Made by a program: the position numbers and the translations under genes. The notes beneath the pieces were generated by a model. That model saw only the letters and a program-made list of their open reading frames with translations. It had not been told where the DNA came from and ran no database searches. This document shows positions 1 to 64,000 of a stretch of DNA of 64,000 bases, piece after piece. Each line of letters starts with the position of its first letter. Position 1 is the first letter of the stretch. Source of the stretch: Amoebophrya sp. A120 (lineage: Eukaryota; Protista; Dinoflagellata); assembly GCA_905178155.1 (NCBI GenBank), contig CAJINV010000004.1, positions 3,505,320 through 3,569,319 of the forward strand, read 5' to 3'.

Positions 1-105
1 GAAAGTGGACAGCTTTTGGCACTCATGCAACACAGATTTTTGTATGCTTCAGATTTACCATGACAAGTTACCATCTTCCAGACCCAGACACTTTTGCATT
101 TGATA

Positions 106-3060
106 TCCTCATCCGTGCAGCACTGTTCCCGCCCGCTGTCCGGATCCTCCAATCCTGGCGCGAGGATGAAACCGCGGCCGGCGCTATTTTATCGCAAGAA
201 AAAACTGTTTCACTGTAAACTTGTAATGCAGAAACTGCAGCTGAGAAGTGTTTGTCTTGCTACACATGCAAGACACTAGATTTTTAACTGTGTTTTCCTT
301 TAAAAGTCTCGCATGCCAAGTTTTCTTTGTCATGTGTAACAAACTTGTGATGCAAAACTTGCAAAATCCTTACAGTGAAACACTACTTTTTTCGTACGAT
401 ATACTGGGTCGTTTTTTCGCTCGCTTAGACGAACACAACGCCTCCTCGTCATCATCATCGCCATCCTGAAGTAGAGAGCAGCGCCAGCGGCCCGATCTTC
501 TACTACTCGGCCTCTTTCCAGCACCACGACCAAGCTCGCGACGAACAGAAATAGAGTTCTTCGATCCCACTAGACTGGCCTCCGCGACCTGTGAGGCCGC
601 TGCTCTACTTGCGGAGGTAGACGCTCGTCCTTTGTTGATCTTCAGATTTTTGAAGGCAGTAGCAGTACCACTGTGGAGGTCCAGCCCCGGAGCAGCAGGG
701 ACACGACCCCGGGAAGAAGAAGAAGAGGCAGAAGCACGACTCCCCCGCCCGGTCACCATCTTGAACTCTCCGCGGCTCCTTCTGGAAAAGCTATCCTCTC
801 GCGAGGCGCCGCCGCCCCCGCCCCCGCAATTCGAGACCGGCGTCCCGTCACTGTCTGCGCCGCCGCTGGTATCAAAATGAAAAGCCCCCCCCCCGCCGCA
901 CAATCAAGTGGAAGCCTGTGCAGGAGCAGCGCGACCTGTGTACACAGATGAGGTTTATTGTCCTGCCGAGAGGGACCAGTGCGCGAAGTGGAGGTCCTAA
1001 GCGTAGTACGCAGAGATGTTTTTGTGCTAGCTTAGCATAGCAGAGGCTGCGGCCTGCCCCAGCATTAGAAGTACAAATCGCCTGCAAAATACAATCATGC
1101 AGCGGGCTCTCTGGATTTGCCCGCCTGCAAAAAACTTCGTGGCAGTTCAGTATCACGAAGCTTTCGGAGCGTAAATAGTACTTTAACTTTTTCATCACAA
1201 TGGGGACGAGCAAGGGGGGGTCCACATATTTTCCCCTCAATAACTGGCGAGGAAACCGCCCGGCGGGTTGCCGCCTATCCTGAGTAAAAACGTACCCACA
1301 CCAGAGTTGTAATGCAGATTTGCAAAGACAGGAAGACTTGTAACGCGCATCCCCATGAGAGCCATTTCCAGTCGTGTTTTGGAATTTGTGATGCCGTGAA
1401 CAGGATGAGCAGATGAATCTGTGATGCGGCTGCACTTGCTAACCTGCACTACACTGCATAGCGCACCTTGTCATGCGTGACTCACAAAACTCCTAGGTTT
1501 GTGTTGCAAAATCTCCATCCTGACTTTGGTGTGGGTACGTTTTTACTCAGGATACCGCCGAGCATGTGTTCGCGCCGGTAGGACCCGTCGCTCGCGAAAT
1601 CGTCCGTCGGATCGTTGCCCAGGCCCAAGTGCCGCGCACTGTCCGAGGAATATTCCCCCTCGGAATTATCGTAGCTGTTTTCGCTGTGCAGCTCTGGACG
1701 AACTGCATTTTTCATTCGTCCCAGGCTGCTCTTGTTTCCCATTTGTAGTCCCGATTGCAATTCATCGCCACAGCGAAGATCTCGTTGTAGGGACGATGAC
1801 ACGTTATTTGCTGTTGTTCCTATAGTCCCTCGTCCTAGTGAACAACTACTACCATGGCGCCCTTGATGCTCGCAGTTCTCTGCGCCAGGGCTGGGTCTCA
1901 TGGTCTCTGAAGCCCCTGCTCGTGCTGGCTCGGGTACAGCTCCCCCTTTGCTGGCCGCCTTCCGTATCACACAGAAAAAAGCAGGCATTTGTAATGCAAA
2001 AACAAATACACAAAAAAATCTGCAGCGCATATCCTAAACAGCATGCTATGGGGCCACCCATGACAAGTTTTTCTGTGTATTTCGTTTTGCATTACAAATA
2101 TGACCTGCCTGCTTTTTTCTCTGGGATATTCCGCTCCAGTTTGCCCTGCAGGTCCGACTCATCCGAGTAATTGGCCTGCGCGTGGAAATGTGCAGTGCAA
2201 ATATGTCTCCTGGGTTTGGAATAAAACAAAGCGGAAACCTGTCACGCTGCAAGGTGTAAAGTCTATTCTAAAAATATCAATTCGTATTGCTACGTGCAGA
2301 GGACCACATTCTTTATGCGCGATAAGCATCTTCAAGAAGCCCTCACAAAACCTGTGATCATGCGAAGGCACACGTCACAGATGACGATGTGGCGCATGCA
2401 AAATCTGGGTGGCAAACTACTTACGTGGCACTCTTTCTTCCAGACGACCCAGTGACTACACATTTGCAAATGGTAGGAATGGGTCCAGCATGACGGGAAC
2501 GCCATCTTCACCATTCTCCTCCTCGGGCAGCAGTACCCCCGCACCGGATATCGCGACAAAAAACTGTTTTTCTGTCCCTAAACTTGTATTGATGCAGAAA
2601 ACGTACTATCGCAGACGCGTTTGTCACATGCTACCCTGGCAAGACAATCGACTTTTAGGCGTGTCTCCCCCGTTTGCGAAGCTCGCACGGGATGAACTCT
2701 TGTTATTTCTAAAATGTAAGTAGAGCTGCAAACTTGTATGTGATGCAAAACTTGCAAAATCTTCCTTCCAGTAAACCACTTTTTTCGTGCGATACCAGCA
2801 GGAGCCACTGGTCTACTACAACTTGAGGGGCCCGGGCCAAGCAGAACCACGTCATGGCTAAAATTGTTTAAAACACGGTTTTTTCCATCGCCAATAGAAG
2901 AAGTTGCTGCACTACTTCCGGCGCCGCTCGAAGACGCTTCTTGTGGGGAAACTGCGACCACGACTGTTCCCTTGCCTGTCGCCGTATCGCCGCCGGTCGT
3001 GCGCTCCGGCCGACTGCGAGTGCCAGAGGAAGAGGCCGCGGAAGCGTGCATAGTGTTCAT
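106..3060 (-). CDS. Hypothetical low-complexity (S/G/A-rich) protein, multi-exon, continues past the left edge
   Basis: ORF pieces 2578-3096, 1482-2030 and 370-903 join in one frame (MNTMHASAASS...APAG/AGVLLPEEENGEDGVPVMLDPF/HAQANYSDESDLQGKLER/KAASKGG...MLGG/NPPGGFLAS/GGADSD...KKRPS/SAGRGFILAPG). The join requires removing elements 2549-2794, 2189-2475, 1965-2128, 1276-1554, 870-1242 and 190-401, each with 5 nt. Confidence 0.7.
1276..1554. mobile_element. Introner family B (TIR TATCCTGAGTAAAAACGTCCCCACCCC), representative copy, TSD CCGCC
   Basis: Other copies: 9252-9585, 11398-11674, 12722-13003, 13009-13289, 13365-13656, 14393-14674, 14786-15067, 15796-16074 (TSD TACAA), 24195-24475, 25918-26197 (TSD CCAGC), 40097-40375 (TSD CAGCT), 55476-55794. 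Confidence 0.95.
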
Positions 3061-3630
3061 TTCTGAGGTGAAAAGATAATACAAATTTTCAAACACGGCC
3101 TACTTCGAAAACATTCACTCTTTCCCGGGTGGCAGAGACAGAGAGCACGGAATCATAAATGAAAATTGCTTTACATCATGTTGCAACGCCGAAACAAAAA
3201 TGCATGTTAGAAGGACCAAGATAGTTCATCTGATTGAGTTTTTTCTAAAAGCAAAAAGTTGAGGATCTATTCACGGAGTCGTCGACGTCGCTCCTCACAA
3301 TACTAAAAGATGAAACAGAATAAAACCTTTCAACGTTGTGTATCACCTCCCGCCTGTGCATGGATCTTTAGATGCACTACAACCGGACTCAGACAGTGGT
3401 GAGACTTGATGCTCAGCAGGGACACATCATGATAATCTTGGATCGTTTTTCCGGCCTAAGAAAGTAATAATATTAAACGTATGTCAGTAGTAATGAAGAC
3501 TGTATCACCACGAGAGGAGAAAAACATGCGATATTGATCGTGGGGATCAGGATCAGGGAACTAGAGTCCAGCTCCCGTTTTTTCCTGCTCATCTCCGAAA
3601 ACCGCGACGAGGCCGCGGTGGAGCAGCGTC

Positions 3631-3755: not shown

Positions 3756-6700
3756 TTAGAAACCGCCCGGAGGTTCTTGTGAAAGCCACAGCATGTCCGT
3801 TGTGAAGTCGCCACAATTCTTGTCCGTATCAAAGTAATTATCAAATGTAAAAATGTCTGGGTCTGGAAACTTGTGATGCAAAAAGTGGATGATAGCCGGA
3901 CTGCAATACGCAGCTATGCATCACAAACTTTTTGGCTGCCATGTCTTACGTATTCCGCATGGCAAGCTGCGTTTTTGCATGACAGGTAAGAGGGTCTTTT
4001 CGTGCCTATGCAACACAGATTCGCGAATCATGCCAGACAAGCATGACAAACATGAATTCTTCCAGACCCAGACATTTTTGCATTTCATAGTAATGCCCGC
4101 ATTGCGATTGATTCGCCCGCCACGACAAGTGCCGAAACGTATCAACTGCAAAAATGTCTGGGTCTGGAAGGATGTAACCTGTGATGCGCATTTCAGAACA
4201 CACGAAAATCTCTCATGCATAGGTAGCAAAAGCTACTCACTTTCTGTCACCAAAATGGGGGATTTGTCATGCGGGTTCGGCATTGCGAAAGCTTCTCGAG
4301 ACCTGTGATGCTAGAGCTTCCATGCCAGACCTTCTGTGTCATGCAGAAACAGCATGACTCTTCCAGACCCAGACACTTTTACAGTTGCTAAAACGACACT
4401 CTAAGCAAAACGTCGAGGGGTGTCAGCGGCGGGTTCCATGACGCACCTTGCCCATGCCGGGCTACCTTCAGAAGAACGGGCCAGAAGGGTAGCGCTTGCA
4501 CAGTGAGCATGGCAAGAATTTCGGCCGAAAACACGAGCCGCGGAAGAATCAGGCTCGCCGATTGCGGAACCAAACGAACGTCTTCGAGATAGGCCGAAGC
4601 GTGCGGACGGTCTTCGGCTGAACGGTCCTCAGCGTGTCGATATTGCAATTTGCACGCAATGCTTAGGGCAAGGAATAGTAGCGAAAAGGCCCACCCGAGA
4701 AAGATCCCTATCACTCGGCCCAAGTAATAGCCACGATAGGCCTGCGCCCAGGCACTCCGATGAAACTCGCTTTTGCATCGGACCGAGGCTTATCAAATGT
4801 AAAAATGTCTGGGTCTGGAAGATTGTCATGCACGGTTTGCATCACGTGTGAGGTCTGTGATGCATGCCCCAGCATCACAGATTCTGTGAGATCTTTACCA
4901 TGCCTTTTCCGCATGAGAAACTGCCTCTCGGCCTTCTCAAAAGTGAACAGCTTTATTGGTAATCATTCGTTCGTTCGTATGGATCGGCTCTGCCGACCGG
5001 GTGACCCATCGCCTTGCATATAAATGACCGACATAGGCGATCCCCGTTACGGGACATACATATGGCCGTACGGAAGGGCCCTAAGCGCTACATACATAGT
5101 TCATCCTAGCGCCTACCACTTCGGTCGGGACTGAGTCAGCCTGGTCCTGGGGGTTCACAGCGCACTAGCCCTCTGCTAGCATAAACAGACTGGGTTCTAC
5201 AAACTGATCTAACTTCTCATAACAGTGAGGCCATCAATCATGCAACACAGATTTTTGTATGATTCAGATTTAGCATGACAAGTTGTACTCTTCCAGACCC
5301 AGACATTTTTGCATTTGATAAGACTCGCTGATCGGAAACATTCACGAAAAAAAGGTCCGTCGGCTCGTCCAACGGATCCGAGGACACCCCAAACAGTACG
5401 CCGGAAATGTCGAGAGGCTCGTGGAACAACTGCCGCGTTTCAAAAATTAACCGCAGCAAGACTGCGGCCGCAACAGTTTGATGCAGCGCCTGCGACCATA
5501 TCCGAGTATCGTCCTCGTGGATCGTCGTTACACGATTTCGGGTGGCGCTGTTTCCTGAACCTGCTGCTTTTGTTCCTGCCGTCGTCGTCGGAGCTGCGTT
5601 CGGGGCCTTCGCCCTGAAAGTGTTCTGCGGCACCGCAGCCGTGATGATCATGATGACAGGCGGAAGGATCAGCCAAACGACACGAAGTGCCAGATCGATA
5701 GATCGCTCGGTGTTTATGCTGTCCAGGTCATTATCCGCTACGGTTGTAAAGCCCGAACAGGTGCGATCGTACAAGATCAGTGTGTAGTGCGAGAGCAGTG
5801 CACAAATTTCGGCTATCACCAGACCTGTGGTGAAAATCTTGCCCTCCGTGCTGTCCCCTCGCTGACATACACTTGACAAAGTTCCTCTCCTGGCGAAATC
5901 CCAGGGAAGCAGCCAGTACTTTTCCGGCTTCGCCGGCGGTGGATTCGGGCGGTCGGCCGAAAGAGTGTCTGCTTGGTCACCACCTGCCACGACGGTTGCC
6001 CCCTGCTGTGGTTCCGGAGTGACATGATCCCCGCCGCCCTCCGGCTCTACTACCTCCTCCTGGCTGTATTCCCTGGGAAAAAAGACCAAGCGAACCGGCA
6101 GCGCGACGACAATGAGCGAAGCCGCGAACCCGGAAAGGAGGTACACCACAGCGCGAACGTAATCCACCCACCACACAGCAAACCTCTGCGCCAAAAGCAG
6201 TCCACTAGCCTCCTCCACGACCGCCCCGGCGTGGCGAATGTCTGTGGTCGCGTTCACAAGGTCGGTCACGTTGTTGGTGCAGGCGGTGGCGTTCGTCTCG
6301 AGCATTGCAATCTTCTGCTGCATCTCCGCCCGGAGCGTTGAAATCTTCTGCTGTGTCTCCGCCTCGCGCATTGCCATCTCCTGCTGCATCTGGAAAATTT
6401 GCTGCTCCATCGGAAGTTGTCGCAAGTCCTCCTTCTGCCCTCCCATGGCAGTGGCATCTTCCGCGGGCCTGCTTCTCTTTTTTGCTGCGGCATATCCTCC
6501 AATCTGAAGCCACTCCTGCTGCTTGTGGTCCACAAATTCTCTACCCAGATCTTCGATGTCGTTTTCGCCGGTGGGGGAGATAGAGGGAGTTCTCGTCTGT
6601 TGGCGTTCCTGTCGCTCCTCGTTCGTCCCGACCCGCGTAGCCGACAACCCTCCAAACGCATACTGTACTGCAGCATTGCTCTGCAGAAACTCTTCCGCTG

Positions 6701-7883: not shown

Positions 7884-10247
7884 ATCAAACCACCTGCATG
7901 AAGCTTCGCCCGCCGGCATTCCCGCCCCCGGCAGCTCCCTGTCCCGCAACGAACTATTACAATGCAAAATGCCCCCACCCCCGAACTTGGGAGCATTTGT
8001 ATTGCAAACCTTTCCAAATGAAACACTCGCCCTCTTGCATCTATCAGCATCACAGGTTTTCAATCGTGAATAGCAAAAATTTGCATTGCAAAAGACCCCA
8101 GCAAGAGCGGCACTTGCCATGCAAGCTATGCGATACACGCCTACACTCTGCATCAGAAAGATTCATACTCCTTTCCTGCATGACAAAAAGTTTTCATTTG
8201 GAAACTTCGCATCACAAATTTTTGCAATTTAGGGATGGGGGGCACTTTTCACTGTAATACGAACTGCGCATGCTTCCGAGGTTTTCGCCGCAAAATTGCC
8301 GCGTCCTCCATTATATCAAGTGCAAAAATGTCTGGGTCTGGAAATTTGTGATGCTAAAATGTGCAGGATGAAAACACTTCCTCACGCAGGAAAGCATGAC
8401 AAGTCTGCGCAACGCTTTATCATACGAACTCCGCATGAGAAACTGCGTTTTTGTATCATGACGTGAGAGGCTGCCACTTTTGTTGGTCATGCAATACAGA
8501 TTTCACAGGAATGCAAGACCAGCATTACAAGTTCCAACCATCCGGACCCAGACATTTTTGCATTTGATACCACATCTCCACCTGGTAGGGCGGGTCGCGG
8601 TACTCCCTCCCGGTTCCCTTATGGAAGCGTCAGGATTGAAATCGTCAAAGTTGAAATAATTTCTCATGCAGGAATTGCAAGGCATGCAGTGCCTCTCTTG
8701 CAGGGATGGCAAGTGAGGCCGCCTGTCAGCCTGTTTGGGGTCTGCGAGAGAGCTGCTAAAGTAGCACGACAAAAGACGCCTTCTGTCTCTAAACAGCATG
8801 ACAAACTGGATTTAGACGGTCCCGAAATTTGTCATGCGCCGCTTGGAAATTGGGCTTCTAACTGGTATCGATTTTATGCATTACAAATGATTTCAACTTT
8901 GTCGATTTCGATCCTGACACTCCCATATCCCTCGAGAGGATCGTATATCGTGCGAAAAAACTGTTTCACTGCAAGGTAAGCACACTTTCGACGCAAGGGT
9001 TTGCATCACAAATATGTTTCTTCAGCATGACAAAGGAGATCCGCCATGCGTACTTTGTATTAAGGTACTACCGACTACACAGCTAGAAACCCAAACCCAA
9101 CAATGTCTCGCATGATGTGTGACACGGAAATAAACACTTCTGCGTAGTTGTTGCACTTTCTGCATCACAAGCTACAGTTTACAGGCAAACAGCTTTTTCT
9201 CGCGGTATCGTACCGTCGCGGTTCAATATTCGAAGACCAGCCCGCGAGTCATATCCTGTGTAAAAATGTCCCCATCCACCTCTATTTGTCACGCAAATCT
9301 GCACGCCCAAAAAAAAAAGTTTCTCACGCGCAGCCACAACATGCGAGGCGGTTTCTCCTAATGCTTGTTTCTGGGTGGAGTTCTTTCTAATGCTACAATC
9401 AGGTGGCTGAGCTCCTCGATTTCTACTCATGCGCCCGCACAACTAGCTAAACACGATTAATAACGCACACAGTGCGAGCCCAGAGAACTTCTCATGCGCA
9501 ACAGCCAACACTTCTTGACTTGTGTACGTGGAATTGCCATCTTGTCTATGAGTAGTTGGGGACGTTATTTTTACTCAGGAGGATAAACGAGTAGGGAATC
9601 GTGGCCAATCGTCGGTCGGCAACGATTTCGACCAACTGCGGAAGTTTCTGCTTCGTATGCATTGCAAATATGTCTGGCTCTGGATTAATTTGCGATGCGA
9701 AGCCTCCCTGCTGACCAAAAAAATCTGTATATGCAAGAGGCGGATTGGCGAGTCTTTTTGGCGTGCTAGAAGGCAGTTCCTCGTCATGCGAGTTTTCATG
9801 AACGAATCTGCAAAATCGAGGCTTGCAAATTTTCGTTGTCATGCGACGTTCATCAGTCTGTACACCCGGCCCCCGCTCGCATGCAGGGCTCTGCAGCACA
9901 ATTTCGGACCATCTTTCCAGACCCAGATCGATATTTGCATTTGATACTTTACCCGGCCAGACCATCGTACGGAAAACCTTCACCCATGTCATATCAAATG
10001 TAAAAATGTCTGGGTCTGGAAGAATGCAAGTCTGTCATGCTTGTCTGGCATGACTGGAGAATCTGTGTTGCATAGGCACGCAAGAGTCCTCTTACCTGTC
10101 ATGCAAAAACGCAGTTTGCCATGCGGAATACGTAAGACATGGCAGCCGAATAATTTCTCATGCATAGCTGCGTATTGCAGTGCGTCTATCATGCACTTTT
10201 AGCATTACAAGTTTCCAGACCCAGACATTTTTGCAATCCATATGTCA
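7884..10247 (-). CDS. Probable further 3' exons of the calpain-like gene (or a separate small gene), split by 7 introners
   Basis: Short GC-rich segments between elements join as ...RRYDPLEGTGREYRDPPYQVE.MEDAAILRRKPRKHAQFVAGQGAAGGGNAGGRSFMQVV*. The frame across the 9656-9946 junction is unresolved. Confidence 0.5.
8946..9207. mobile_element. Introner family C (TIR TATCGYGCGAAAAAACTGTTT), TSD TCGTA
   Basis: Inverted ends with a 5-bp repeat; other copies at 190-401 and 2549-2794. Confidence 0.85.
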
Positions 10248-10469
10248 CTGCAAATGCTTAGTTGGTAAGTACTACCAGAGTTTCTACCGTAGTAGTGCCT
10301 ACCAAGCGCCGTAAGCGAAGCGCATTGAATGCAACCAAAAACAACTAAATATTGCGGCGTGCGGAACTACTTCCTTAGCCCATGCCCGACGTCCGCAGCA
10401 TTTCGTCTTGTTTCTGGATCTTGTTCTATGTCAATAAAACTTTGCTAGCTGCTTGCAGTTATTTTCAGT

Positions 10470-13400
10470 ACGATAGAGAAACTTCTTCGATCAACAGCGG
10501 CGACCCGATGGAGTAAAACCTTTGTGATTTCAGAAGTTTTTTGGCTACAGCTTCACCTCGTTCGTGTTCGTTGGGAGTTCCACGCGCCATTCGTATCAGG
10601 TTTAGCAAGGCCCTAGTACTCGCAAGAAATTTAGTAGACATGGCCAAAAAGTGAAACGAATATCACACAGCTCCTGTTACGGCGGAGGCTTGCTGCAGCT
10701 GCGGTAACAACGAAACAACTTTTTTTTTACGGTGTGCTGAGGTAGAAAATTCTGATAGACATCGTCCTCGAAACATTCGCTAAATGACAACTATACCTTG
10801 CCACGAGTCGAAAGGCGGGCGTGTCGCCGCAGACTGCAGCGGAGAGGTACAAAATGGTTGTGTCGGGCGTGGTATCAAATGTAAAAGTGTCTGGGTCTGG
10901 AAGAGGAGAAGTTTGTCATGCACATTTTCCATGCTCCATGATGTCTGTGACGTATGCCATAGCATCACAGATTTTTTGAGAGCCTATCGATGCACATCCT
11001 GCAAGACAAATGCCCTCTACGCGTAGCCAAATTTGACTCCTCTTGCTGCTCATGCAATACAGATCTTTTTAGCATCCAAATGCAGCATCACAAGTTTGGC
11101 TCATCCAGACCCAGACATTTTTCCATTTGATACGTGGTCTCGTCGGGTTTCACCTTCACCGCTAGCGCCGCGTCCCGGGTGTTATCCTGTGCAAAAGTAT
11201 CGCATTCGTATAAATGCAAGTCAAATCAGGATTACAAATTATTTCTCAAGCTGAGGAAATTTGTAATGCATTTATGCGAGTACGATACTTTAACTTTTGC
11301 AGTTCATAGGTGTGCCCCCAGTTTGACACCGTGACCAGGGACACGTCCACACTGCTTCCGTTGGCGGACGAGGCGGAGTGCAGGTTCAGCCCCATCTTAT
11401 CCTAAGGCAAAACGTCCTCACCCCATAGTTGTCATGCGAATCGGCATGCTTAAAATGTTTCTCATGCGGAGCCCGATGAAAAGCGCTTTCTCGTCGTGTT
11501 TGTAATGCTCGAAGTAGCATAAGACGCTCTATCTGCAATGCTATACGCGCTAGCTTCTGAACAGGACAACACTATGAGCCCAAATCTGTCACGCGCCACA
11601 GCCAAAACTCGTTGATTTGTCTATAGCAGATTTCTCATTTTGACTCGAGTGTGCGGACGTTTTTCCACACAATACATCTCCTCATACAGCTTCAGAAAAA
11701 TCGGGGAGTGGCAGTCCTTATCAAATGCAACTATGTCTGGGTCTGGAAGATTCAAGGAGTTTGTCATGCATCTTCTGGATCACGCAACTGGTCTCTAATG
11801 CACACAAAAGCATTACAGGTTTTGCGCAGGCCTCCTGATGTCTATCCCCCATGAGAAATTCCCTATTTGCGTAGCAAAACATGAGAAGCTTTTGGAGGTG
11901 CTTATGCAATACAAATTTTGCCTATTCCAGAAATCGCATGACAAGTTCCAATTCTTCCAGACCCAGACATTTTTGCATTTGATAGTCCTCGCTGCTCAGG
12001 TAGCCGCCTAGCCGATTTATCAGAATGAAAAATCCCCCCTCCCCATATCCAAAACGAAATTTGTGATGCTGTATTTGAGTACACAAATCGACTTGTAATG
12101 CTAGAAGGCCAAGAGACGCAGCTGTGGCCTCATTTGCAGGCAACTTGTCATGCTGTTTCCCCCTTCCAGCTGCCCCGTGTCATGCTGAAGATGCAAGGCT
12201 TTCCCACGCCAACCAGCACTACAGTCCGCATCTTTTCCCTTCTAGCATGACAAGGCTGATTTGTGGCCACAAATCCGCATCACATATTTCAAGTTTGAGT
12301 ATGGGATGGGGGGATTTTTCATTTTGATACGCTTATCGCTCTGGCCCACCCCGATGAAGATCTCGCACTCCTGCCGGGGCTTAGTGACCTCGATCTTGAA
12401 CACCGGCCAGTTCTCGCTCGTGACGAAGCTCGGGAAACACCAAATCTGTTCTTCCAGCTGCCTGGGCGGCGGGGAGGCCCCGTACGTTCTTGGAACGAGG
12501 GTCGGCGCCTTGCAAAAAATAATTTTACCGGAAAATTAAAATAAAAATTATTGAAAGCAAATGCGAAAAAATAACTTTTACCTTGCTCTCCGCTCTCCGC
12601 ATTAGTTTTAGTACGAAGGTAGAGTAGCGGCCGGACCAGAATTCAAGTGGAACAATAAACGCACTGAGTAAGTACCAGGTCAGAGCCTAACGCCTTCCAA
12701 GCGGGGATCCAGGTGCTCTTCTATCCTGTGTCAAGAAAACGTCCCCGCCAGCCAAGAGTTGTCATGCAAATTACCTGCAAGCCTAATCACTAAAACGTTC
12801 ATCAAGCGCAATCCCACCACGAGTAGCGTTTTCTGATGCTATCTGAGGGCTCTCTGTCGTGCTGGAAAAATCAGGACAAGATCATCGATCAGCGATGCGG
12901 CCTCCGCACCAGCCTGAACGCTGTCCGAAAACTCCTCGATACGATTGTGTTGCGAAATTCATCCTATCTCGACTCTGGGGCGGGGTCGTTTTTCCGCAGG
13001 ATACCTCCTATCCTGTGTAAAAACGTCCCCACCCCAGAGCTCTCATGCAATTCTGCACGCCAAAAAAGTTTCTCACGCGGGGCCCTATGAAAAGCGTTTT
13101 CTAGTCGTGTTTTGGAATTTGTAATGGTAGGACCAGCATGCTACGATAGATCTGTGATGCTGCTGACCTAGCTAAAACAGGATTACACTACGAGGACAAA
13201 CTTGTCATGCCAAACAACCACAGCGGGTTGATTTGTCTAGCAGATTTCCCATCTCGGCTCTGGGGGTGGTGTCGTTTTTCCTTACGATATCTCCAGGTCG
13301 GAGGTGTTTACCAGTCTACATTCGTGAATGGACCTAAACACCTGGTGGAACACCAAAATCTCCATATCATTTGTAAAAACGTCCCCACCTCCCCAGAGTC

Positions 13401-24057: not shown

Positions 24058-25265
24058 ACTGGTACTTACTATCCACGGGAGATACCGAGCCCGGTCTGGA
24101 ACAGTGCAATAACCACTTTTCGGTAAAAACACGTTCCGGTGACAAGTCCACGCGCTCTAGCAGACGCTCTAGCAGACGCAGGGACTGCGGCGCGCATCAT
24201 GTGTAAACCCGTCCCCATCGAAGTGGCATGTCGAAAAGGTTTCTCATGCGCAATCGCAAACCCAGGAGCAGCATTCTATAAATTCATCTGAAAAGTTGCA
24301 GTGCTCTAAGGAGGATAAAGAGCATGGTGAATTTGTTCTGTGCCTGCTCTAGCTAAACACAACTGCACTGGGTGCCCAGACTTGTCATGCGTTGCCCAAA
24401 GTAGACCCTCGTTGGTTTGTGTAGAAAAGAAGTCGCCATCTTGACTCTGCGGCGGGAACGGTTTTACACAGGATATTTACCGCGGATTTTCCATGACGCT
24501 TCTTTCAGTTACTGGCACCGACGAAAAGCTATACTTGTGTTGTTGAATATTCAGAAACGCACACAAATTCTGCAACGACACTCTGTAGTTCAAGCAGCCA
24601 CCCACAACTACATGCTAGTGTCTCCTCAAGTTCTTGTGCTGGCTTCTTATTACAGCACTTTTGCGGTTCGCATCTTAAATTTTCACACAAAAAACAAAGA
24701 CGGACGAAAGCAACCACCCTTGGAAAAAGTACGTACAAATATGGCAGCGTATACTTTCACCATAGACGCTAGCACGACACAGCTACACTCCTGACACACA
24801 TTCTACCCTTCTTTTTCTGCACTTCTTCCCTTTCCGCAAGACAAGAAGCACCAGGATGAACACGTAGGAGCGACAAGCAAAAACCCTTGTTCATCTGCAT
24901 GACCACACTTCCTTGTGCTCCTGGTCCTGCATCGCACGTGCGATACTTCAACGCTATTATTTTTTCGGGATTTATTGCAATCTGCGCAGAAGTGGATCTG
25001 CTCTGGCACTTCTCTAGAAGTTTTGTTCTTGGGCATCGAAGAACAGTGGATTTCGATTTCCTCGTTTGCGCGTTATGAAGGCGATAGCACTTTGCTGGTG
25101 CTGGTGAAAAGGAGGTCCTTTATTCTCTTCATTTTGATGTGCAGCAGGAACATGGAGGTTCTATTTCAGTACCAGTAGTGAACTAAAATCTAGTGACCAC
25201 ATCATATATTCAACTCCAGCAGCGCAAGAATGGTAGTAAGAATAATTGTTCCCACTGACTAGTAC

Positions 25266-54090: not shown

Positions 54091-54095
54091 TCCGC

Positions 54096-57000
54096 ATGAC
54101 CACCAGCAGCAGTTCCTCGTCCAGCCCGTGGCCGAGCCGGTTGGCCGACTACGGTCCGCTGGAGGTGGAGCTCGGGCGCGGACAACAATGCGTGGTGTAC
54201 CGCGGCCGCTGGCAGGACCGGTGGGTTGCCCTGAAGGTGGTGCAGAAAGCGAACCTGCGGCGGGCGGAGGCGGAGAAGCTGCAGAACGAGATTGTGGTGC
54301 ACAGCCAGCTGCAGCATTTGCACGTCTTGGACATCTACCATGCGTTCGAGGACGCGGAGCAGGTGGTACTCGTGCTAGATATGCATTGCAAAAGTATCGT
54401 ACTAAGTACAAATTGCATTACAAATTTTATCAGAAAGAAAAATGGAATTTGTAATGCTAATTCATCAGGTAAAAAGGTAGGCTTGTCATGCAAGATTGCA
54501 ATTAGCACGAGTGCGATACTTTTGCACAGGATACTAGAGCACGCAACACCGGTTTATTGTCACAACCGGAAGGACTCTCCTGTAGGTTGTCTCCGGACTG
54601 ACGCGGGCCCGCCGGACCACCGCCGACCTGGTCGTCCCACCGCCGCGCCCGCGCCGAGTAGGGGGCGCTTCACCGAGGCGCGGCTCCGCGTGCTTTTGTC
54701 CGAGGTGCTCAAGGCGCTCCAGTACCTCCACGGGCTGCGGTACCATCACGGCGCGGTGCGGACGGAAAACTTGTTACACGTGGAGGGGTATCGAATGCAA
54801 ATGATATGTCTGGCTGTGGAAGACGACTGCGCTTGGTTGTCGTGCATGTGCCGGGACAGATGGGTGATCTGGAATACACGCTAAGTGTTAGAGGTCGTAA
54901 GAAGGGTGCTTAATGGGTACGCTGCATAAAAGAAACTCGCTTGTTTTTTGCGTACCAAAGTGTAAGGAACTTGTTCTGGTATCCATGCAATACAGATTTT
55001 GTTTTCTGCTCCAGATTTAGTGCCAGAAATTTAAACGCTTCCTGACGCAGACGTTGACGTACTTTTGCAATGCATAAGAGTGTGGGAACGAAGTTGTCGG
55101 ATTTCAGCAGTGTGGCGCGTTTCCAGGACCCGCGGGACCTTCGGGAGGAGAGAGGCAACTTTCGGGGAGGGAGTACCGGGGGAGACATCTTTGCTTCGCC
55201 ACGAACTAGTACCGATAGACCGTCGTCGTCGTGCACAAAGCCTCCCAAGTCTTCTTCTTTTCGCGGCGAGGCGCAGGATTTGTTCGACCTAGGCACGTGC
55301 GCGGTACAGCTGCTGCTGGACTCCGAGAGCACCGTCGACCCCTGGGTGCGGAACAACGCCTTCCCGGCCACCGTCTCAAAGCGGTGCATCGCCTGCCTGG
55401 AGCAGTTCCAGAAGCCCAACGCCACCGCGGAAGGGCTTCTGCGGCAGCCGTTCTTCCTGTCTTCGCTTGCGATTGTATCCGGAGTGAAAACTCCGTCGCC
55501 ACCCGCTCAGAGTTGTAGTTATGTAAGATTGCAAACAGTTATGTACGGGAACACGTGTAATTATGTGCGTTCTTATGTGCGCAATTCCCAATCATGTTTT
55601 GGCATTCGCAAAATGCGGTGAACTACCAGAATAGATCGATGGCTTTGTGATGCGGCTGTCCTTGCTAACCTGCGCTACACTACAGAGAAAAGCATGCGCG
55701 AGACTTGTCATGCGTGACATCCAAACCTTCCGGATTTGTGTTGCACAGTTTCCAACTTGACCCGTGGGTGGGCACAGTATTTTCACACAGGATAAGTTCC
55801 ACGGATCGTCTACGACCCGCGAAACGAGGACCCGGGGTCGGCGCGAGGCGGTTTGCTGCTCGGGAGTTCTTGTAGGAACAACCTGCACAAAAAGGCCAAC
55901 TCGGCACCCGGCGCGCACAGCGTGGTGGCGCCCTCCTCCAGCGGCAGCCTAGCCCTTCCCGCGGGGAGTACAGCGAAACACGGCGGGATGGTGCATCTCC
56001 GGGACGTGCGCGGCCGGAGCGGACAAACACGGGCCGTGCCGCACCGTGGCGCGGGCAGCGACTACGGTGCGGCAAACTCGAAACCAAGAATCGTCCGGCC
56101 GGTTATGCCCTACGACCCACATAATTACACGGACAGCGAAGGCAGTGTGCAGTATGGAAGAAAAGTTCGTTGAAAAGCATTCATTTTATTGCGGTGGTTG
56201 GTTATTTGCTTTCGCTGAAGCCTACTTTTGCACCCTTGGAAACCACGACGAGTGAAAACGTATTTCACAATTATGCACGGCAGCTTGGCAAATAGTAGTA
56301 AACCGAAGTGGTCAACATAAAACAGGCCACGGAAGATGTCTCCCCCCATCGCATTGAAGACGAATGGCCCTTTTCATCTCCCTTTGCATACAGCACGCCG
56401 GAGAGACAAAGATGCGGACGGAGTGTCAGGGCAGCGCAATAGCAAGGCGCGACGCGAGGAGCCGCCAGGAGCTGCTCCGAGGATGGTACTGTCGACCAAG
56501 GCAGCGCTGCTGCACCAACAAAAGACCCGAAACCGGATTTCCTCCAGTCACCATCTGCCGTCGGGAAAGGTGAGAAGCAGAAGAAGATTTGTTTATACAC
56601 AGACAATCTGATATCTGCAAGCGTATTTCATCTAACTGTTCTTCAGCGCTTCACTTAACTTCGCTGAACAAAAAATCAAAAGCGAAACCCATCTTTGATG
56701 TCTGATCATACCTGCAGGTGAACCCGCTCGCAGCCGCCGGAGTTGCACCACGGGAAGGCCACGCGACCTCGCAGCGGTCGTCCCGGGACGTGCCTCTCGT
56801 CCGACCCTCTGCGCCGCCCGCAATAGGAATCACTGCGGCGTCCTCGCACAACAGCGACAGCGACCTCGCACATTCGTCCTCGAACGAGAGTGGGGAGGAG
56901 ATTGGTTTGCAGGAGGTCCTGCCCGTCTTGCTTGGCGATGAAACGCACAGCACTATGCAAATCGGCAGCTGCCAGCTACACACGTCCACGGGGCAGTTTG

Positions 57001-60000
57001 ACTTCGAGGACCAACATGATCCACTTCCTTCGTGGCAGCAAATGATGCAGCGCAACAGCACGGGCACGGAGCACAACACGCGGCTGGTCTCGCACCCTTT
57101 CTCAGACGCCCGCCAACTGCGATCGGTGATCAGCAACGACGAGGAAGTAGTAGATGAAGACGGAGGTAGTTTTTGTACTACAAATGGCGGCGGAAGACAA
57201 GTAAAAGAGCATCCACCTCCGGTAGAAGTAGACCTGGATCCAGACGCTATGCCGGAGAAGAGAAGACCTACGTCAACATCTCTTCACCATCGCCGCCGCG
57301 ACATCGCCGCAAGAAACTACGGCCCGAGAACAGTCGAGGCGGCCGGGAAAAACGAAGTTGGTACAACTATGTTCGGAGGCGCTGCTGGATCGCCTGCACG
57401 AACGCCTCCTTCCGGAAAAAAGTCGCCTGCGTCTACTTCCCGTGGTGTTCTGCCTCACGGTGGTCAGAAATTTCGCAGCTGCATCGAGGACCAGAGCTTT
57501 ATCGACGAGGGCGCGCTGCTGTTTGACAAACGCGGCACGGAGCTGTTGCCGGAGTTCCCCCGACAGACCGCGGGCAAATCCCCGACCACTGAGCTCGTGT
57601 TCGATAAACACCGCGAGTTGCTAGCGGCCAACCGCCGGTCTTGCGACAAACTGTTGCAAGAGAATAAATGTTTGGAGCAACAGGGCGAGGGGCCCAACAA
57701 CACGAAAAATGGGGTTCGTAGTAATGCTGGTCCATCTAGTTCTTCTTCAAAAGTTTCAACTTCGGAACAGCAACATCAAAATGCCGCCAAAAGAGCACCT
57801 CGAGCCCGTGAAGATGTTTTTTCGGCACAGCAGCCGCTTCTACTGTCCGATGAACCTGAAAGTTGTTTCGAACAGACAGAGGAGGATCTTCGCCTCCACG
57901 GAGACAAGGATAATTGTCATGATTGCAATATGGACGAGGTGGACGTCGAGCATGGTACTACTAGCATCAAAAGCCCATTACTACAAGAACCGGGAGGACA
58001 TGAACATCAAGATCCCTCGCTGGTATCCTCGTCCGCAGCCAACATTCTCGACGCGGAGCAGCTTTCGCCGGTGACCAACCGGCACGAGGACATGCAGACC
58101 AGCGGCTTTCTCCTGTCCAACCACGTGGGCGACATCAGTCTGACGCACTATTTGCCGGGCGACGTCGGCGCCGCGGCAGCCATGCCCATGTCTCGAAGCA
58201 GCAGCTCCAGCCGGAATGTAGCAGTAGGTGTGAACAAGAACGAAGAAGACCACCATGATAACCCTGCTGCAGGCGCCGGGTCTCGAGCCGAGACGCAACT
58301 GGATCATCAGGAGCTGTTAAATGATCCGCGCCGGCGCACCGGCGGGGCAACGCCGTCGTCGTCGAGTCGCGCGAAGTTCGACCCGGATGGACAGCAGAGC
58401 AACTTTGCTCAAGAGGTAGATCATGCAACTTCGAGAAAGCATGGCGCGGGCCGAGTCTCTTTAATTCCGCCGACGACGAGGAACAGAACGCGGCTAGCCG
58501 TGCAACATGACCCTAGTACAGACCACGAGGACCGCGGCACCTGCGGCAGGGCAAACGATTCCGCGATGGACGCGTTGGTGCGGGGGCTGCCGTCCCCAGC
58601 GCGGCGTGGATCGTCTCGGCAGCGCTTTTTCGGCGATCGGCCAGCCGGAGTAGAGGAGCAGCAGGCTCGTGGTACAGTATCAAACGGCACTGCTGGAGGT
58701 GCTGCACATCGACCGCCTTCAGGAACTACTTCCCGTGGTCGGGAGAACACGTATAAAGACGATCGCAAAAATTATGCTAGAAATGTTGCAGCACCTCCAT
58801 CTGCCAGCAACGCAGACCACGAGGACCAGTCCGTCGTGGATATGGAAGTGGAAGGTCTGCCGAGTAGTAATCCACACGACCCGCACGGCGGTTCCTTACC
58901 GGCGGAAGCACTATCACCGCCGGTTCCCGCGATGCACACAAGTAACCTGCTGGTGGACACGAAGCGGATTAAGAAGCCCGTGGACCTGACGCAGAAAAAC
59001 GGGTATCGCTTCCAGGTGACGCAGCGGGGAGAGGTGCGAATCGGCGGCCCGGAGGGCGTGTTCGTGATCGATCCCGGCGGCGTCAGCTGCCGCTTGGAGC
59101 AAAGGTATAAGGTAGAGTCCTTTACGAAAGAAGCGGGCGGATTTAGGGTTTTAGGATTTAGGGTTTTTGTCCGCTTTACGAGACAGGCGGCGATGACTAT
59201 GTGTTTCACAACATACGTACGATCAAACCAGTTTTTGATGGCTCGGTCTGCGTCCACGATGCGAAACCAAACCTCCGCACTGCTGGTTGTTTGTTCTACT
59301 TACAACTGCATTTCTCTTGTACAAGTCTCGTCAAAGCTGACAAATTGCGCCAAAGTACTCGGCCTCTGCTGTATGATTGGCAGTTGTGCTGTAGATTTTA
59401 TCCTTGTCTTTCCAAATAACTTCATTCAGGTCTTCCAGCACGGCGAGCAGCAGTGAGCATAACAAATCCTCCGCAGCTGCTTTGGGTCTATGTCCCGACC
59501 TCAATAAGCGCATCCAGGCCGGGGAGAAGAGCCGGCAGGCGCTGATCCGGAAGTACGCGAGCTACCAACACCTGCCGGCCTTCTTGAAGCACTGGTACCA
59601 GTTTGCGTTCACCGTCGTGAACCAGCTCCGGGCGCGGACGCCGAAGGTGATTCTGCACTACGAGCGGTGTCGCTGCGAGCTGATGGACAACGTGCCCTTA
59701 CCGGACTTCGTGGTGCACTTCCACGACACCATGAGTACCCAGCTGATCCGCTACTGCCGCGTACGGGAGGGGCTTTTGACCTTGTCCACACGGACTGGTG
59801 GGTCCACGTTCTCGACGTCCAGAAAGCCGGTCGGAACTAGAAGTACCGGCTTGGATCAACATGAGCCGCACATGCATGAAGATCATGATTCCTTTTTCAC
59901 CCAGCAGAAGAGGGGAGGACTACTATCGTCTTCCGCTTCTGAAGTCGTAGCCGACCTCCAGCCCGCGTCTTCCTTCGAAATTCCGCTCGAGTTGGTCTTG

Positions 60001-60638
60001 CAAGCGGAGGACGGTGCCGCGAAACAGAGCCTGGACGAACTGCTGGTGTTATCCACTGCAATAAAGAACATGGTTGAGTCTGGAAAAAGGCCGTGGATAA
60101 GATTAGTAAACGGAGATGTCTACTTTCGGGACCGCATGAGAAACGCACAGACTGCTTGCTTGTGTACAGACAGATTTTTGTCCTCTATTCCAGACTCAAA
60201 TCGACGATATTTCCAACGCATAAGTGCCGTATCAGTGGGAGCTGGGCGATGTGAAGCCCGTGCTGGAGAAGGTAGTTGCCGCTTGGGAGATACGCATCGC
60301 AAAAATATCGTACACTGAATCTGCGAAGAACTGCATCACGAAAGGAAAAAAGGAAGCTCTTATGCATCCTTATTAGTTATTCTTGAAATAAGTTTGTCAT
60401 GCAAAACCAAAAGTGCAGTTACAATTCGGGTATACGGTTGTACTTTTGCAGAGGACAGAAGGCCGCGCGGCGGGAAGAAAAAATCGCGTTCGACAAGAGC
60501 GCAGAGCTCTTACACAACCTGCACGCAAAGACGGGGAGCGCGGGATTTCCAGCGTTGGAGTTTCAGGCGGAATTTGAGAGATACCAGCGCGAGCTCGCCA
60601 ACTTGTACCCGGTCGTGAAGCGGTTTGACGTATGGTGA
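54096..60638 (+). CDS. PLK4: Polo-like kinase 4 (SAK)-like protein: degenerate N-terminal kinase domain, long disordered linker, cryptic polo box
   Basis: Kinase motifs LGRG..VY, VALK, NEIVVHSQLQH, FED..VVLVLE, LQYLH and KLSDF are joined across elements 54380-54533 and 54789-55076. The C-terminal VDTKRIKKP...HLPAFLKHWYQFAFTVVNQLRARTPKVILHYERCRCELMDNVPLPDFVVHFHD resembles the PLK4 cryptic polo box ([33 protein letters not shown]..DF). Middle exon boundaries are uncertain. Confidence 0.78.
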
Positions 60639-62027
60639 AGAAAATTGGTTTCCTGGGGTCGCCCTCGGCATGCCACGAGTGTTCAAGTTTTTACTTCTGC
60701 TGGGTACTTACTTCCGTGCGAATTTAATAGACCTCGTGTGGGCAATCTTATACAATTAGATGCGTAGTGGAGAACTACGTCTCCTGCTGGCAACTTGTAC
60801 GTCGTGCATGCATGTCATGGGCATGGGTTTCAGGTGTAGAGCTCGAACCTGCGGCGCATCAGAGCCACAAACGAGCAGGGAAAATCCGGGGAACTGAAGA
60901 ACACTCGTGGCCAGTCAGGGGGACAATTTTCTGCTTTGTACACCTACCCATAAGAGGCCCGCCAGCTGACTACGCGAAGATGCGTCGAGCAGTTTCTTGA
61001 ATTCTCCGATGGGCACTGCTGTGTGTGTCTAGTTTACTGTACGAGGTAAAGAAGCACAACTACAAGGTAAAGAAGCACCACCAAAGGAAAGAAACAAGCT
61101 TCTGCGCAGTCACCGTCCGACGCGAGAACAAAGTCCAAAACGCGCAGCGTCTGGTCCGAGCAGGGCTGTTGGACGAATCTGGCTGGCTAGCCAAGGGTGC
61201 TCCAGAAAAGCCCAAATCCGCGAACACTTTCCGATACGGACTTCGTCTGCTGATTACGTAAAGTTACTCGATGCGAATAGTTCCTCTGATGAACACGTTA
61301 CGCTGGACCTGGTACAGAGAAAGGAAAGAATTCATTATCTGCGCAGAAGTCTACACGTGAAAATGCAGCGAAGTGGAGTAGCTGTAACGTGGGCATGTCA
61401 AGGCCAACATGATCCTCGCTCATCTAGGGATGAATGTGATATCACTCACGTGACACGCTGTTCTTTCTGTTCGACGTGGCTGCTAGAATGGTCGAAGACG
61501 ATTGTTTCTGCCGATTGGTATATATTCCCGTGTATTTGCTGATTGGATAAAAAAGTGCGTACACACTTTTCTCCTCCTATATGTCGCGGTATTAAGACAT
61601 AAGGTCGATGTCGTGTGATAAAAATCGATCTGGCTGGTACCAGTCCACAATTGTTTGTCGAAGCTCGTGCCGTTGAGAAGGAAATTTCTGCCGAGTTCGT
61701 TGAGAAGAAAAATCACCGCTGCATGAATGTCCTTGGAACTATACGCCAAAGTGGTGTTAGTTGAAAGTCTCCCACTTCGTTTTTTCGTGGACGCGGTTTA
61801 TTTTGCGAGGATGCTGCTTTATTGTCTAGAAAAGTACCTCGCGCTCGAAACACCTTTTCTTCCGGAATAGGACGGCTGTAGCATAATTTTTGGTCGCCTG
61901 ATTTGTTGTTTCTGCTGTCTTCCGTATCTCTAATTTCTCCTTGTTGTGCAGACCTACTAGGTTCTTCTTCTACCCCCATAAAAATATTCCTGATAAACTA
62001 AAGTAGAAACGATCGCAAAGGAATAAA

Positions 62028-63897
62028 ATGTCTTCGTCGCGGCCTCCCTTTTGGGAGGTCACTGACGTGGAGATCGTTCGGAAGGAGGGTAGTTCCACGA
62101 AGGTTGCAGAGGCGGTTATCGAAGCTAGGCCGACCTCGAAATACCCGAATCTATGGGTGTGCTGCAGTTCCCGCGCGGAAGGCAGCAGCAAATTTGACGA
62201 CGTGGAGTTGACCCGGACCATCTTTTTGCTGAAAGACGGGTGTCGGGCTAGTGGGCGCAGTGTGGTACTTCAGTTCAAGCCCACCGGGAAAAAGTTGGTC
62301 AGTTTGAAGGCCACGTTCCTGACGGAGGCCGACGTCAAAGGGTTTTGCACGGTGTGTGGGCTACCGTTCGGGGAGGTTCCGCAGCCAGCAGTGGCGAGCA
62401 ACAAACGAGAAGAGCCAATAAGCAGTGCACCGGCGTGGGCCACGGACCCGATGGAGCGGGCGAAGCGGGCGCGCCTGGAGAAGCCGGTGGTGAAAAGACC
62501 ACCCGATCAGCACGAGTAAGCTGAATGATAAGAAAGCAGCGAATTGCAGCTTCTATACAGACGCGATTATTTTGATGTCGGACACGACGTTAGCTGATAT
62601 CAAACAACTTTGTTCTGTAGAGAGTTTATCACGCATCAAAGCATGTGAGAAGTCATACAAGAGGTTTATCTCACACAACAACAACTACCTAACTCCGCAG
62701 CCCCAGCGTCGTGATGGGTACGAACGCACTGAAAACGAAATCCCTGCCCCAACACCTCGCAATACTCGTGACGCACCCGAACAAGAAGAATTTCGGGCTG
62801 CAGCAGAGCGACAAACCCTACATGCCCCCGACTGACACCGCGTGGCGCACCAAGCGGGACCTCACCACCGCACGCTGGGAGCAACAGATGGCGAAGGTCC
62901 CGGCCCCCAGCTCCCAGTACAAGCGGGACACCCCGGCGCCGAGCTTCACGAATGGCTTGATGAGTCTTTCGAACGCGCCACCGCTCCCCAACGGCACGGG
63001 AACCACGTCTGCCTCGTCGAGCAGCAGCGGTGGCGGTGGCGGCCTCGTGAACCTCGGCAACACCTGCTTCTTCAACGCGGTGTTGCAGTACATCCGCAGC
63101 ATCCCTCTGTTCGAGGAGATTTTGCTCCGTGCGAGGACCGTTGCGAACGGCATAGAAAAAGAACCGGGACTGGAGGGGAAGGGAAAGACAGAAATGAAAG
63201 AGCCTGCCGCTACCACTGCTTCTGCCGATGGCGCCCTTGTTGCTGCGCAAGGAAATAAACATCAAGGCGAAGAAGGTGTTCTTCTTGAGCCGGCAGCGTC
63301 ATCAACCAGCACCATATCCGCAGCTTCACCACCAGAGCACCCGGACGCCTTTCTCTCCCCCGCGAAAGAACCCACGACGAGCAAAACTGCCTGCGACTTG
63401 CGGGCGTTGCCAACGCCGCAACGGACACGGAAGGAGGATGATGAAAATAAAAACGAAGATCACGTCGTGGCAAATAAAGTAAACCTGAATAAACCATCGG
63501 AGACGAGCAGGCTGAATTCCATCGAGATTTACGCACTGTCGGTGAAGGTGTTGGAGGGGTTGAAGAGCAACAGCACGGCGGTGAACCCGGGGGAGCTGCT
63601 GCGGTGCATCAGCAAGAAGAACCCGATGTTTGGGAACCACATGCAGCACGACGCGCACGAGTTTTTCTTGGAATACATCAACCACCTTCACGACGCGCTG
63701 CTAGACCAGGTCCAGGAACTCCCAACGGTGCTTTTCGACAGCGAGGTGTCCCTGCAGCTGGACTGCCGCAGGTGCCACAACTGGCAGAGCGACAACGTGG
63801 AGAAGTTTCGCGACTACAGTCTCGATTTCCTCCCGGCAGGTAGGGCACAGAAGCTGGAGGAATTGCTGGAAGCGTATTTTCAGGACGAGGAGCGCGA
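62028..63897 (+). CDS. Ubiquitin-specific protease (peptidase C19), 5' part; continues past the right edge
   Basis: Exon 62028-62515, a GT-AG intron at 62516-62700 that keeps the frame, then the Cys box GLVNLGNTCFFNAVLQ, MQHDAHEFF, CxxC and DYSLDF. Interrupted by an element starting at 63898. Confidence 0.9.
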
Positions 63898-64000
63898 TAT
63901 TGCAAGGAAAAATCCCCCCTCCCCATATTAAAAACGTATCTGAAAATTTGTGATGCAGATCTGCGGCCACAAATCCTGTCTGTCTTGCTAGAAGGCAAAT

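What the first reader, a model, noticed from the sequence alone, without database searches (positions are those of the whole stretch)
1..64000. About 80 MITE-like non-canonical introns following an 'element + 5 nt' excision rule
Seen: elements with TAT...ATA inverted termini and 5-bp flanking direct repeats. Deleting an element plus exactly 5 nt restores conserved protein motifs across many junctions, e.g. calpain FVSPGE/FP, FAW/VELLIEKAY, YLWME/IL; PP2A DEL/IPFL, EW/FTAR; kinase VL/EH. The rule holds even where the repeat has decayed to 3/5 identity (190-401). Known: non-canonical introners with inverted and direct repeats, starting with TAT, have been reported in Amoebophrya (from memory), so the class is probably not new. 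Inference: at least 11 distinct families use one removal system whose machinery is unidentified.
Basis: partly seen in the sequence, partly recalled or inferred. Interest (0 to 1): 0.85.

Follow-up and report, generated by a model that had tools for sequence, protein, structure and literature searches.

The report
Transposon introns with fixed cut register
Eighty-eight small transposon-like inserts interrupt ordinary genes here and are missing from transcript assemblies at one fixed offset without normal splice signals; this class of intron is already described in the parasite Amoebophrya, but the fixed offset suggests it is likely removed by a loosened spliceosome, which can now be tested.

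Summary
Observation confirmed. 88 complete elements have TAT-type inverted ends and a 5-bp flanking repeat (81% identical at length 5, 24-31% at other lengths). Contigs of four runs (one sample, RNA status guessed) skip element+5 nt at 17 of 17 element junctions shown; one contig's length fits ten more. None of the 17 reads as GT-AG.

The class is known: it matches the A120-type introners of Amoebophrya (Farhat 2021), so novelty is low.

Not found in the papers I saw: the cut has one register, intron = N + TAT…ATA + 4 nt, and it flips with gene direction. The element's first TA (intron +2U, +3A) is invariant (88/88), an A at -7 nearly so (87/88), while +1, -2 and -1 are free. That points to a relaxed spliceosome (inferred, about 60%), not a hairpin nuclease. 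All families share an internal 8-bp motif spaced 31-33 bp apart, probably transposase sites. No element lies in 10.7 kb of intergenic DNA.

One reader example is mistranslated. The scan noted similar hairpin introns in other genomes; the sequence look-up found no look-alike of these.

The parts
1..105 (-). Element cut by the window start (only one end present)
   Evidence: unpaired end at 105
190..2794 (-). 6 elements in one gene: 190-401, 870-1242, 1276-1554, 1965-2128, 2189-2475, 2549-2794
3839..5320 (-). 3 elements: 3839-4089, 4140-4390, 4791-5320
7955..18857 (-). 29 elements in the calpain region: 7955-8259, 8314-8569, 8620-8927, 8946-9207, 9252-9585, 9656-9946, 9992-10242, 10873-11132, 11183-11308, 11398-11674, 11719-11984, 12018-12329, 12722-13003, 13009-13289, 13365-13656, 13695-14241, 14393-14674, 14786-15067, 15252-15512, 15796-16074, 16135-16395, 16480-16650, 16736-17061, 17089-17392, 17503-17770, 17808-18043, 18100-18308, 18332-18623, 18711-18857
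   Evidence: Peptidase_C2 1e-12; 577 codons across 16 junctions; last ten fit a contig's 524 nt. That 7955-12329 belong to the same gene is inferred.
20075..23488 (-). 8 elements: 20075-20297, 20729-20962, 21293-21570, 22057-22296, 22347-22659, 22695-22931, 22974-23133, 23187-23488
   Evidence: 20075 junction unambiguous 4|1; 20729 and 21293 fit contig length, though other sums also fit
23756..24475 (-). Element 23756-24007, and 24195-24475 (ends uncertain, left out of all counts)
25533..27644 (-). 5 elements: 25533-25839, 25918-26197, 26506-26658, 26974-27237, 27324-27644
   Evidence: 401 codons across 5 junctions; 26506 gap 158 = 153+5
28170..30632 (-). 3 elements: 28170-28338, 28918-29262, 30326-30632
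33135..40621 (-). 16 elements in the PP2A scaffold (A) subunit gene: 33135-33370, 33455-33762, 34550-34760, 34968-35229, 35973-36306, 36372-36525, 36567-36819, 37107-37279, 37359-37620, 37717-37887, 38273-38544, 38605-38858, 39147-39419, 39765-40029 (probably inside a GT-AG intron), 40097-40375, 40496-40621
42849..49201 (-). 11 elements in an ankyrin-DHHC palmitoyltransferase gene: 42849-43064, 43116-43280, 43341-43599, 43829-44090, 44571-45251, 45554-46367, 46576-46750, 46855-47005, 47987-48362, 48679-48813, 48949-49201
   Evidence: Ank and DHHC; all 11 shown as element+5 in contigs; 954 codons across 8 junctions
54380..60940 (+). 6 elements in a polo-like kinase region on the + strand: 54380-54533, 54789-55076, 55476-55794, 60050-60222, 60291-60457, 60631-60940
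   Evidence: Pkinase and Plk4_PB2; last four shown as element+5 with the register mirrored
63898..64000 (+). Element cut by the window end, in a ubiquitin hydrolase gene
   Evidence: unpaired end; UCH 3e-19

Best explanation
These are short transposon-like elements with a 5-bp target duplication that sit in genes and are missing from transcript contigs as one base + element + four bases, likely excised by the host's own spliceosome working without the GT and AG dinucleotides. Shown: the geometry, the gap of element+5, the register and its flip with gene direction, and the invariant U at intron +2 and A at +3. Because exactly one copy of the duplication leaves with the element, the message is restored in any phase and either orientation. 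Inferred: the element's first TAT serves as positions +2 to +4 of a donor (N|UAU, like G|UAU). The terminal stem probably holds the two ends together in place of U1/U2AF recognition. The acceptor is likely set by distance from the terminal ATA, whose A at -7 or -5 is the candidate branch point. Also inferred: one integrase-like transposase family spreads all families, binding the shared internal motif GCAWNASA.
For: Register: the number of upstream-repeat bases kept intersects at {4} for minus-strand genes (two junctions unambiguous, 20075 and 46576) and {3,4} for the four plus-strand junctions; in + coordinates that is 1 versus 3-4, so it follows transcription. DNA-like contigs of run X5 run through elements uncut. 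The same contigs skip three GT-AG introns. Ends, in transcript sense: 5' T 88/88, A 88/88, third base T 76/88; mirrored 3' end 85, 79, 87 of 88. TA is broken only at the 3' end in 11 elements and only at the 5' end in 0 (p=0.001); the third base only 5' in 12, only 3' in 1 (p=0.003). In the terminal triplet A-C mismatches exceed G-U (18 vs 4, p=0.004), the opposite of selection for pairing, whereas deeper in the stem G-U leads (85 vs 58, p=0.03). External check: all 9 commonest non-canonical ends listed for A120 have T at +2 and all 9 for A25 are TT- (Table S4 of PMC7789003). 4 of 88 elements fall on GT-AG under this register, and Farhat report the same architecture in 15% of A120 canonical introns. 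Two of five canonical donors examined begin GTAT. Nearly all spliceosomal proteins plus U2, U4, U5, U6 were found in A120. Precedents: fixed branch-to-acceptor spacing in Yarrowia, Trichomonas and Giardia (PMC2483917); tolerant U2 spliceosome in Fritillaria (PMC13326754).
Against: No lariat or other intermediate was seen; the tools cannot show one. All 16 combinations of first and last base occur, with no sign of the G-G/A-C terminal-pair constraint. The contig-verified intron at 60631 has G at -7. The bases before -7 do not match a U2-pairing consensus (U at -9 in 28 of 88), and only 1 of 5 canonical introns has A at -7. The end asymmetry comes mostly from 18 hand-added, decayed copies; in the 70 scan-only elements it points the same way (0,0,4 vs 1,3,0) but no position is significant, nor in 38 ends of five young clusters. 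U1 was not found in either published strain. The contigs are from one sample, their RNA status is a guess, and contigs drop minor isoforms. No transposase was found in the window.
Confidence: 0.6

Rival explanations
1. A separate, non-spliceosomal pathway (structure-guided nuclease plus ligase, as suspected for euglenid nonconventional introns) recognises the terminal hairpin and cuts 1 nt before and 4 nt after it.
For: +1, -2 and -1 are free; the ends are predicted to pair (mean probability 0.6-0.7 at positions 1-3 and 9-14 in 81 elements); G-U exceeds A-C in the inner stem; U1 undetected; euglenid introns are TIR-bounded and leave as circles (review PMC11282704).
Against: The terminal triplet tolerates pair-breaking changes and avoids the G-U changes, so it is read as sequence. 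The invariant bases sit exactly at donor +2/+3. Two decayed but excised copies fold little better than shuffles (z -2.0 and -0.6).
Confidence: 0.25
2. A second, specialised spliceosome (divergent snRNA or U2AF-like paralogues) handles these introns while the standard one handles GT-AG introns.
For: Fritillaria uses duplicated U2AF subunits for non-canonical 3' ends (PMC13326754 abstract and results); canonical introns here end in AG without the -7 A.
Against: Elements landing on GT-AG look the same as the rest; minor-spliceosome snRNAs were not found in the published strains. Not testable without the genome.
Confidence: 0.12
3. Elements are removed from DNA (programmed elimination or a processed copy), and the joined contigs are DNA.
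For: Runs X1-X4 are only guessed to be RNA.
Against: They also lack GT-AG introns and have no depth at 51672-53672; X5 contigs retain the elements; the register follows gene direction.
Confidence: 0.03

Closest known systems
Introner elements / non-canonical introns of Amoebophrya sp. A120 (Farhat et al. 2021, PMC7789003)
   Same: Inverted repeats starting TAT, seven variable bases, then an A run; direct repeats at the borders (5 bp in their Fig. S19 legend); about 240-260 nt; many families; mixed with GT-AG introns.
   Different: Nothing in kind. Their text calls splice sites variable relative to the hairpin, the border unknown, and finds no dinucleotide signature. Here one register, invariant +2U/+3A, a shared internal motif and absence from intergenic DNA are seen. 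I could not see their figures (Fig. 3 logos, S19-S25), which may already show part of this.
Amoebophrya A120 introner families in Gozashti et al. 2025 (PMC12130899)
   Same: Mostly TIR DNA elements of unknown superfamily; many called 'co-opt both' splice sites.
   Different: In the 21 of 58 rows seen, automated duplication lengths run from 2 to 5 and mechanism calls vary by family; here length 5 and one register fit all families.
Fritillaria borealis MITE-derived non-canonical introns (PMC13326754; review PMC11282704)
   Same: Transposon-derived, TIR and TSD, spliceosome-excised without GT-AG.
   Different: Preferred ends AG/AC and AG/AT with a YAY acceptor from the target site; here the target is unconstrained and +2U is kept.
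Euglenid nonconventional introns (review PMC11282704)
   Same: TIR stem joins the ends, TSD-like repeats, non-canonical junctions.
   Different: Stem at +4..+6 with -8..-6, pyrimidine|purine junctions, circular products; here the stem starts at +2/-5.
Ginger2/TDD integrase-like DNA transposons (PMC2836005)
   Same: TDD-4/5 make 5-bp duplications; TGT termini differ from TAT by one base. An A120 family carries an integrase-like frame.
   Different: Ends are TAT, not TGTNR; no transposase here; Gozashti et al. state their element lacks Ginger termini and duplications.

Membership tests
Amoebophrya A120-type introner element | Inverted repeat starting TAT, seven weak positions, then three or more As | tested here: met
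   TAT in 152 of 176 ends; A at positions 11-14 in 67-83 of 88 per end
Amoebophrya A120-type introner element | 3-5 nt direct repeat overlapping the borders | tested here: met
   identity peaks at length 5
Amoebophrya A120-type introner element | Absent from transcripts, ends not GT-AG | tested here: met
   17 of 17 junctions shown; none readable as GT-AG or GC-AG at any equivalent placement
Amoebophrya A120-type introner element | Repeated families without coding capacity | tested here: met
   10 multi-copy clusters, up to 90% identity; six long copies hold only short frames, inspected by eye
Amoebophrya A120-type introner element | Sequence identity to the published families | not testable with these tools
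   no genome held; published family sequences not available
U2-type spliceosomal intron | GT-AG (or GC-AG) ends | tested here: not met
   4 of 88 are GT-AG at the 4|1 register
U2-type spliceosomal intron | U at +2 and purine at +3 | tested here: met
   88 of 88 U, 88 of 88 A
U2-type spliceosomal intron | Branch adenosine in a U2-pairing context | tested here: inconclusive
   A at -7 in 87 of 88 and at -5 in 85 of 88, but no YURAY context; one verified exception
U2-type spliceosomal intron | Lariat intermediate, snRNP dependence | not testable with these tools
   needs lariat sequencing or inhibition
Euglenid nonconventional intron | CAG at +4..+6 pairing with CTG at -8..-6; pyrimidine|purine junctions | tested here: not met
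   +4..+6 is T, C/G, variable; +1 is any base
Ginger2/TDD transposon | TGTNR termini | tested here: not met
   TGT in 7 of 176 ends, all at the transcript 3' end
Ginger2/TDD transposon | Integrase-like DDE transposase in an autonomous copy | not testable with these tools
   no autonomous copy seen in the window; no genome held

The most novel reading that the evidence does not exclude
These introns are removed by a machine unlike any characterised spliceosome or tRNA-type splicer: it reads only U-A one base inside the 5' cut and measures four bases past the element's last A, ignoring both terminal dinucleotides. A transposon family could then insert anywhere in any gene, in either orientation, without a scar.
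Probability: 0.3. Interest if true: 0.9.

Novelty: already known. Interest (0 to 1): 0.55.

Why it matters
How Amoebophrya removes over 60% of its introns without GT-AG, and apparently without U1, was left open in 2021. A single register with named invariant bases turns this into direct tests: where the lariat branches, which base changes block splicing, and whether U6 is unmethylated (U at +4 is favoured by low U6 m6A, PMC13326754). It would show how little a spliceosome needs to read, explain why these transposons can saturate coding sequence, and fix exon borders in annotation. The shared internal motif is a handle for finding the unknown transposase.

Tried and rejected
No whole genome is held, so genome-wide counts, snRNAs and the transposase could not be searched. 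No RNA holder is on record for the stretch; X1-X4 are guessed RNA. Raw-read run X8 laid only 10 reads, all on one inverted repeat, so no read-level splicing rates. The first lay was swamped by repeat joints from X5 (15 of 1261 joints shown). Rfam: no match in the window. A 20-base terminal motif: 0 matches in viral contigs. Related loci by an ankyrin exon: 13 loci at 36-44% identity, not used. Drift of the intronic repeat letters toward G(+1) and AG(-2,-1): not seen (G in 8 of 19 mismatches at +1, 2 of 11 at -1); purine at +1 is only mildly enriched (58 of 88). The internal motif as branch point: rejected, it is strand-symmetric (93 vs 86) and 33 nt or more from the end; no 10.5-bp periodicity. 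Longest-frame test per junction was uninformative in this GC-rich DNA (+5 best in 58 of 88); frame alone cannot tell +2, +5 and +8 apart. The 20729 junction is arithmetic only: one search had an off-by-one, corrected, where two other solutions also fit, so it is not among the 17. Roy et al. 2023 (Curr Biol) is not held.
Full report
Observation. A strict scan for TAT...ATA elements with inverted ends found 50 in the window against 1-6 in five Markov controls. A relaxed, strand-symmetric scan gave 76 candidates. After dropping 5, setting aside 24195-24475 and adding 18 by hand, 88 complete elements remain, 126-814 nt, most 150-330. The flanking repeat is 5 bp: identity 0.81 at that length, 0.24-0.31 at others. 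BLAST gives 10 multi-copy clusters plus singletons; four of five clusters tested occur in both orientations relative to the gene. If kept, 54 of 88 would shift the frame, and only 3 have an in-frame length with any stop-free frame.

Host genes. Single exons match calpain, ankyrin plus DHHC, protein kinase and Plk4 polo box, ubiquitin hydrolase and the PP2A scaffold subunit. Removing elements restores long frames: 577 codons across 16 junctions, 954 across 8, 466 across 6. Frame alone allows +2, +5 or +8.

Transcript evidence. Runs X1-X4 (one sample, RNA status guessed, contigs only) hold about 30% of the words of a test stretch and X5-X6 about 78%. On 43001-63000, 15 of 20 joints were shown: 12 element joints and 3 GT-AG introns; three loose ends give three more element junctions. 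Two more come from contig pieces. All 17 skip element+5, and none can be read as GT-AG or GC-AG at any equivalent placement. A further contig keeps exactly the 524 nt predicted for ten elements at +5. X5 contigs cross elements uncut. Two of the 17 elements were delimited only after seeing the gap, and six partly by hand.

The register. Copies whose repeats differ locate the cut. For minus-strand genes the only value common to all junctions is four bases kept from the upstream repeat; 20075 and 46576 are unambiguous. For the four plus-strand junctions it is three or four, which in + coordinates excludes the minus-strand value. So the intron is N + element + NNNN and the register follows transcription. 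The element's TAT is then intron +2 to +4 and its ATA is -7 to -5.

What is conserved. In transcript sense the 5' T and A never vary (88 of 88 each) while the third base does (12); at the 3' end the pattern is mirrored in position but not in tolerance (3, 9 and 1 deviations). The tolerated changes break pairing (A-C 18, G-U 4), unlike the inner stem (G-U 85, A-C 58), which also argues against a general strand bias in mutation. First, last and second-last bases are free: all 16 first/last pairs occur and 4 of 88 are GT-AG. Limits: the asymmetry rests on old copies, many added by hand; it is not significant per position in the 70 scan-only elements or in young clusters. Independent support is Table S4 of PMC7789003, where all 9 commonest non-canonical ends of A120 have T second and all 9 of A25 are TT-. 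Since A25 repeats start TTA, +2U/+3A would hold in both strains; that step is my inference.

Mechanism. Removal: most likely the spliceosome, reading N|UAU as a donor, with the stem bringing the ends together and the acceptor set by distance from the terminal ATA (inferred, 0.6). Fixed branch-acceptor spacing exists in Yarrowia, Trichomonas and Giardia, and Fritillaria shows a tolerant U2 spliceosome. Against: no terminal-pair constraint, no U2-pairing consensus, G at -7 in the verified intron 60631, A at -7 in only 1 of 5 canonical introns, U1 undetected. A hairpin nuclease-ligase route (0.25) and a second spliceosome (0.12) remain open. Spread: the motif GCAWNASA occurs 282 times in 85 of 88 elements and 12 times in the 39.8 kb outside. 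Same-orientation copies lie 31-33 bp apart (55 pairs; with one element per cluster 14 pairs, against a mean of 3.8 and a maximum of 13 in 2000 random placements; window chosen after seeing the peak). It is strand-symmetric and resembles positions 4-14 of the ends, so I read it as a transposase-binding array common to all families (inferred). A 5-bp duplication with near-TGT ends suggests an integrase-like enzyme (for an integrase-like A120 family), unproven. No element lies in 10,660 bp that I judged intergenic, where about 24 are expected; the intervals are my own.

Known or new. The elements meet every testable feature of the A120-type introners of Farhat et al., so the class is already known. 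I did not establish the window's source. In four searches and the texts read I found no statement of a fixed register, invariant +2U/+3A, or the internal motif; word searches of Farhat for branch point, lariat and subterminal motifs were empty. Unseen figures (Fig. 3, S19-S25), 37 unseen A120 rows of Gozashti's dataset and Roy et al. 2023 may bear on this.

What I read. PMC7789003: abstract, passages, sections 10, 16, 36, supplement legends and Table S4 rows. PMC12130899: passages, 21 of 58 A120 rows, legends. PMC13326754: abstract and sections 21, 29, 30. PMC11282704, PMC2836005, PMC2483917: passages. Earlier scan notes on hairpin-bounded introns in other genomes were seen and not checked; a sequence look-up found none like these.

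Verdict. Real, confirmed in transcript contigs, and a known class. Interest 0.55, for the fixed register and conserved bases that make the unsolved splicing mechanism testable.

Noticed in passing
window 13785-14167: A different fold-back element (119-bp arms, 89% complementary, TTA at both flanks) is nested inside element 13695-14241. A TTA target recalls PIF/Harbinger elements (from memory).
   Followed up: partly
window 44679-44996: An 18-bp tandem array with a 15-bp inverted pair is nested in decayed element 44571-45251; the whole 686 nt is still skipped at the usual register.
   Followed up: partly
window 12722-13289: Two elements of similar type lie 5 bp apart. Under the 4|1 rule they abut with a zero-length exon, or leave as one composite intron. 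Not shown in the contig tables.
   Followed up: no
window 43601-43613: A micro-exon of about 13 nt between a GT-AG intron and element 43341-43599 is kept in all four contig sets.
   Followed up: partly
window 45554-46367 and 46855-47005: An 814-nt and a 151-nt member of one family (90% over 108 nt, opposite orientation); the short one looks like an internal deletion. The long one holds only frames up to 128 codons, not searched against Pfam.
   Followed up: partly
window 50710-54030: A 3.3-kb element-free stretch with an A/T-tract core (about 155-bp spacing) between GC-rich flanks, where gene direction switches from - to +; no contig depth at 51672-53672; a 298-codon frame has no Pfam match.
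   Followed up: partly
window 9991-10023: Raw reads of run X8, which otherwise does not match, carry the same terminal repeat in other flanks, so a related organism shares this element family.
   Followed up: no
window 11183, 13695, 26506, 36372, 48679, 54380: All six members of one cluster lie in the same orientation relative to their transcripts, unlike the other families; may be chance.
   Followed up: no
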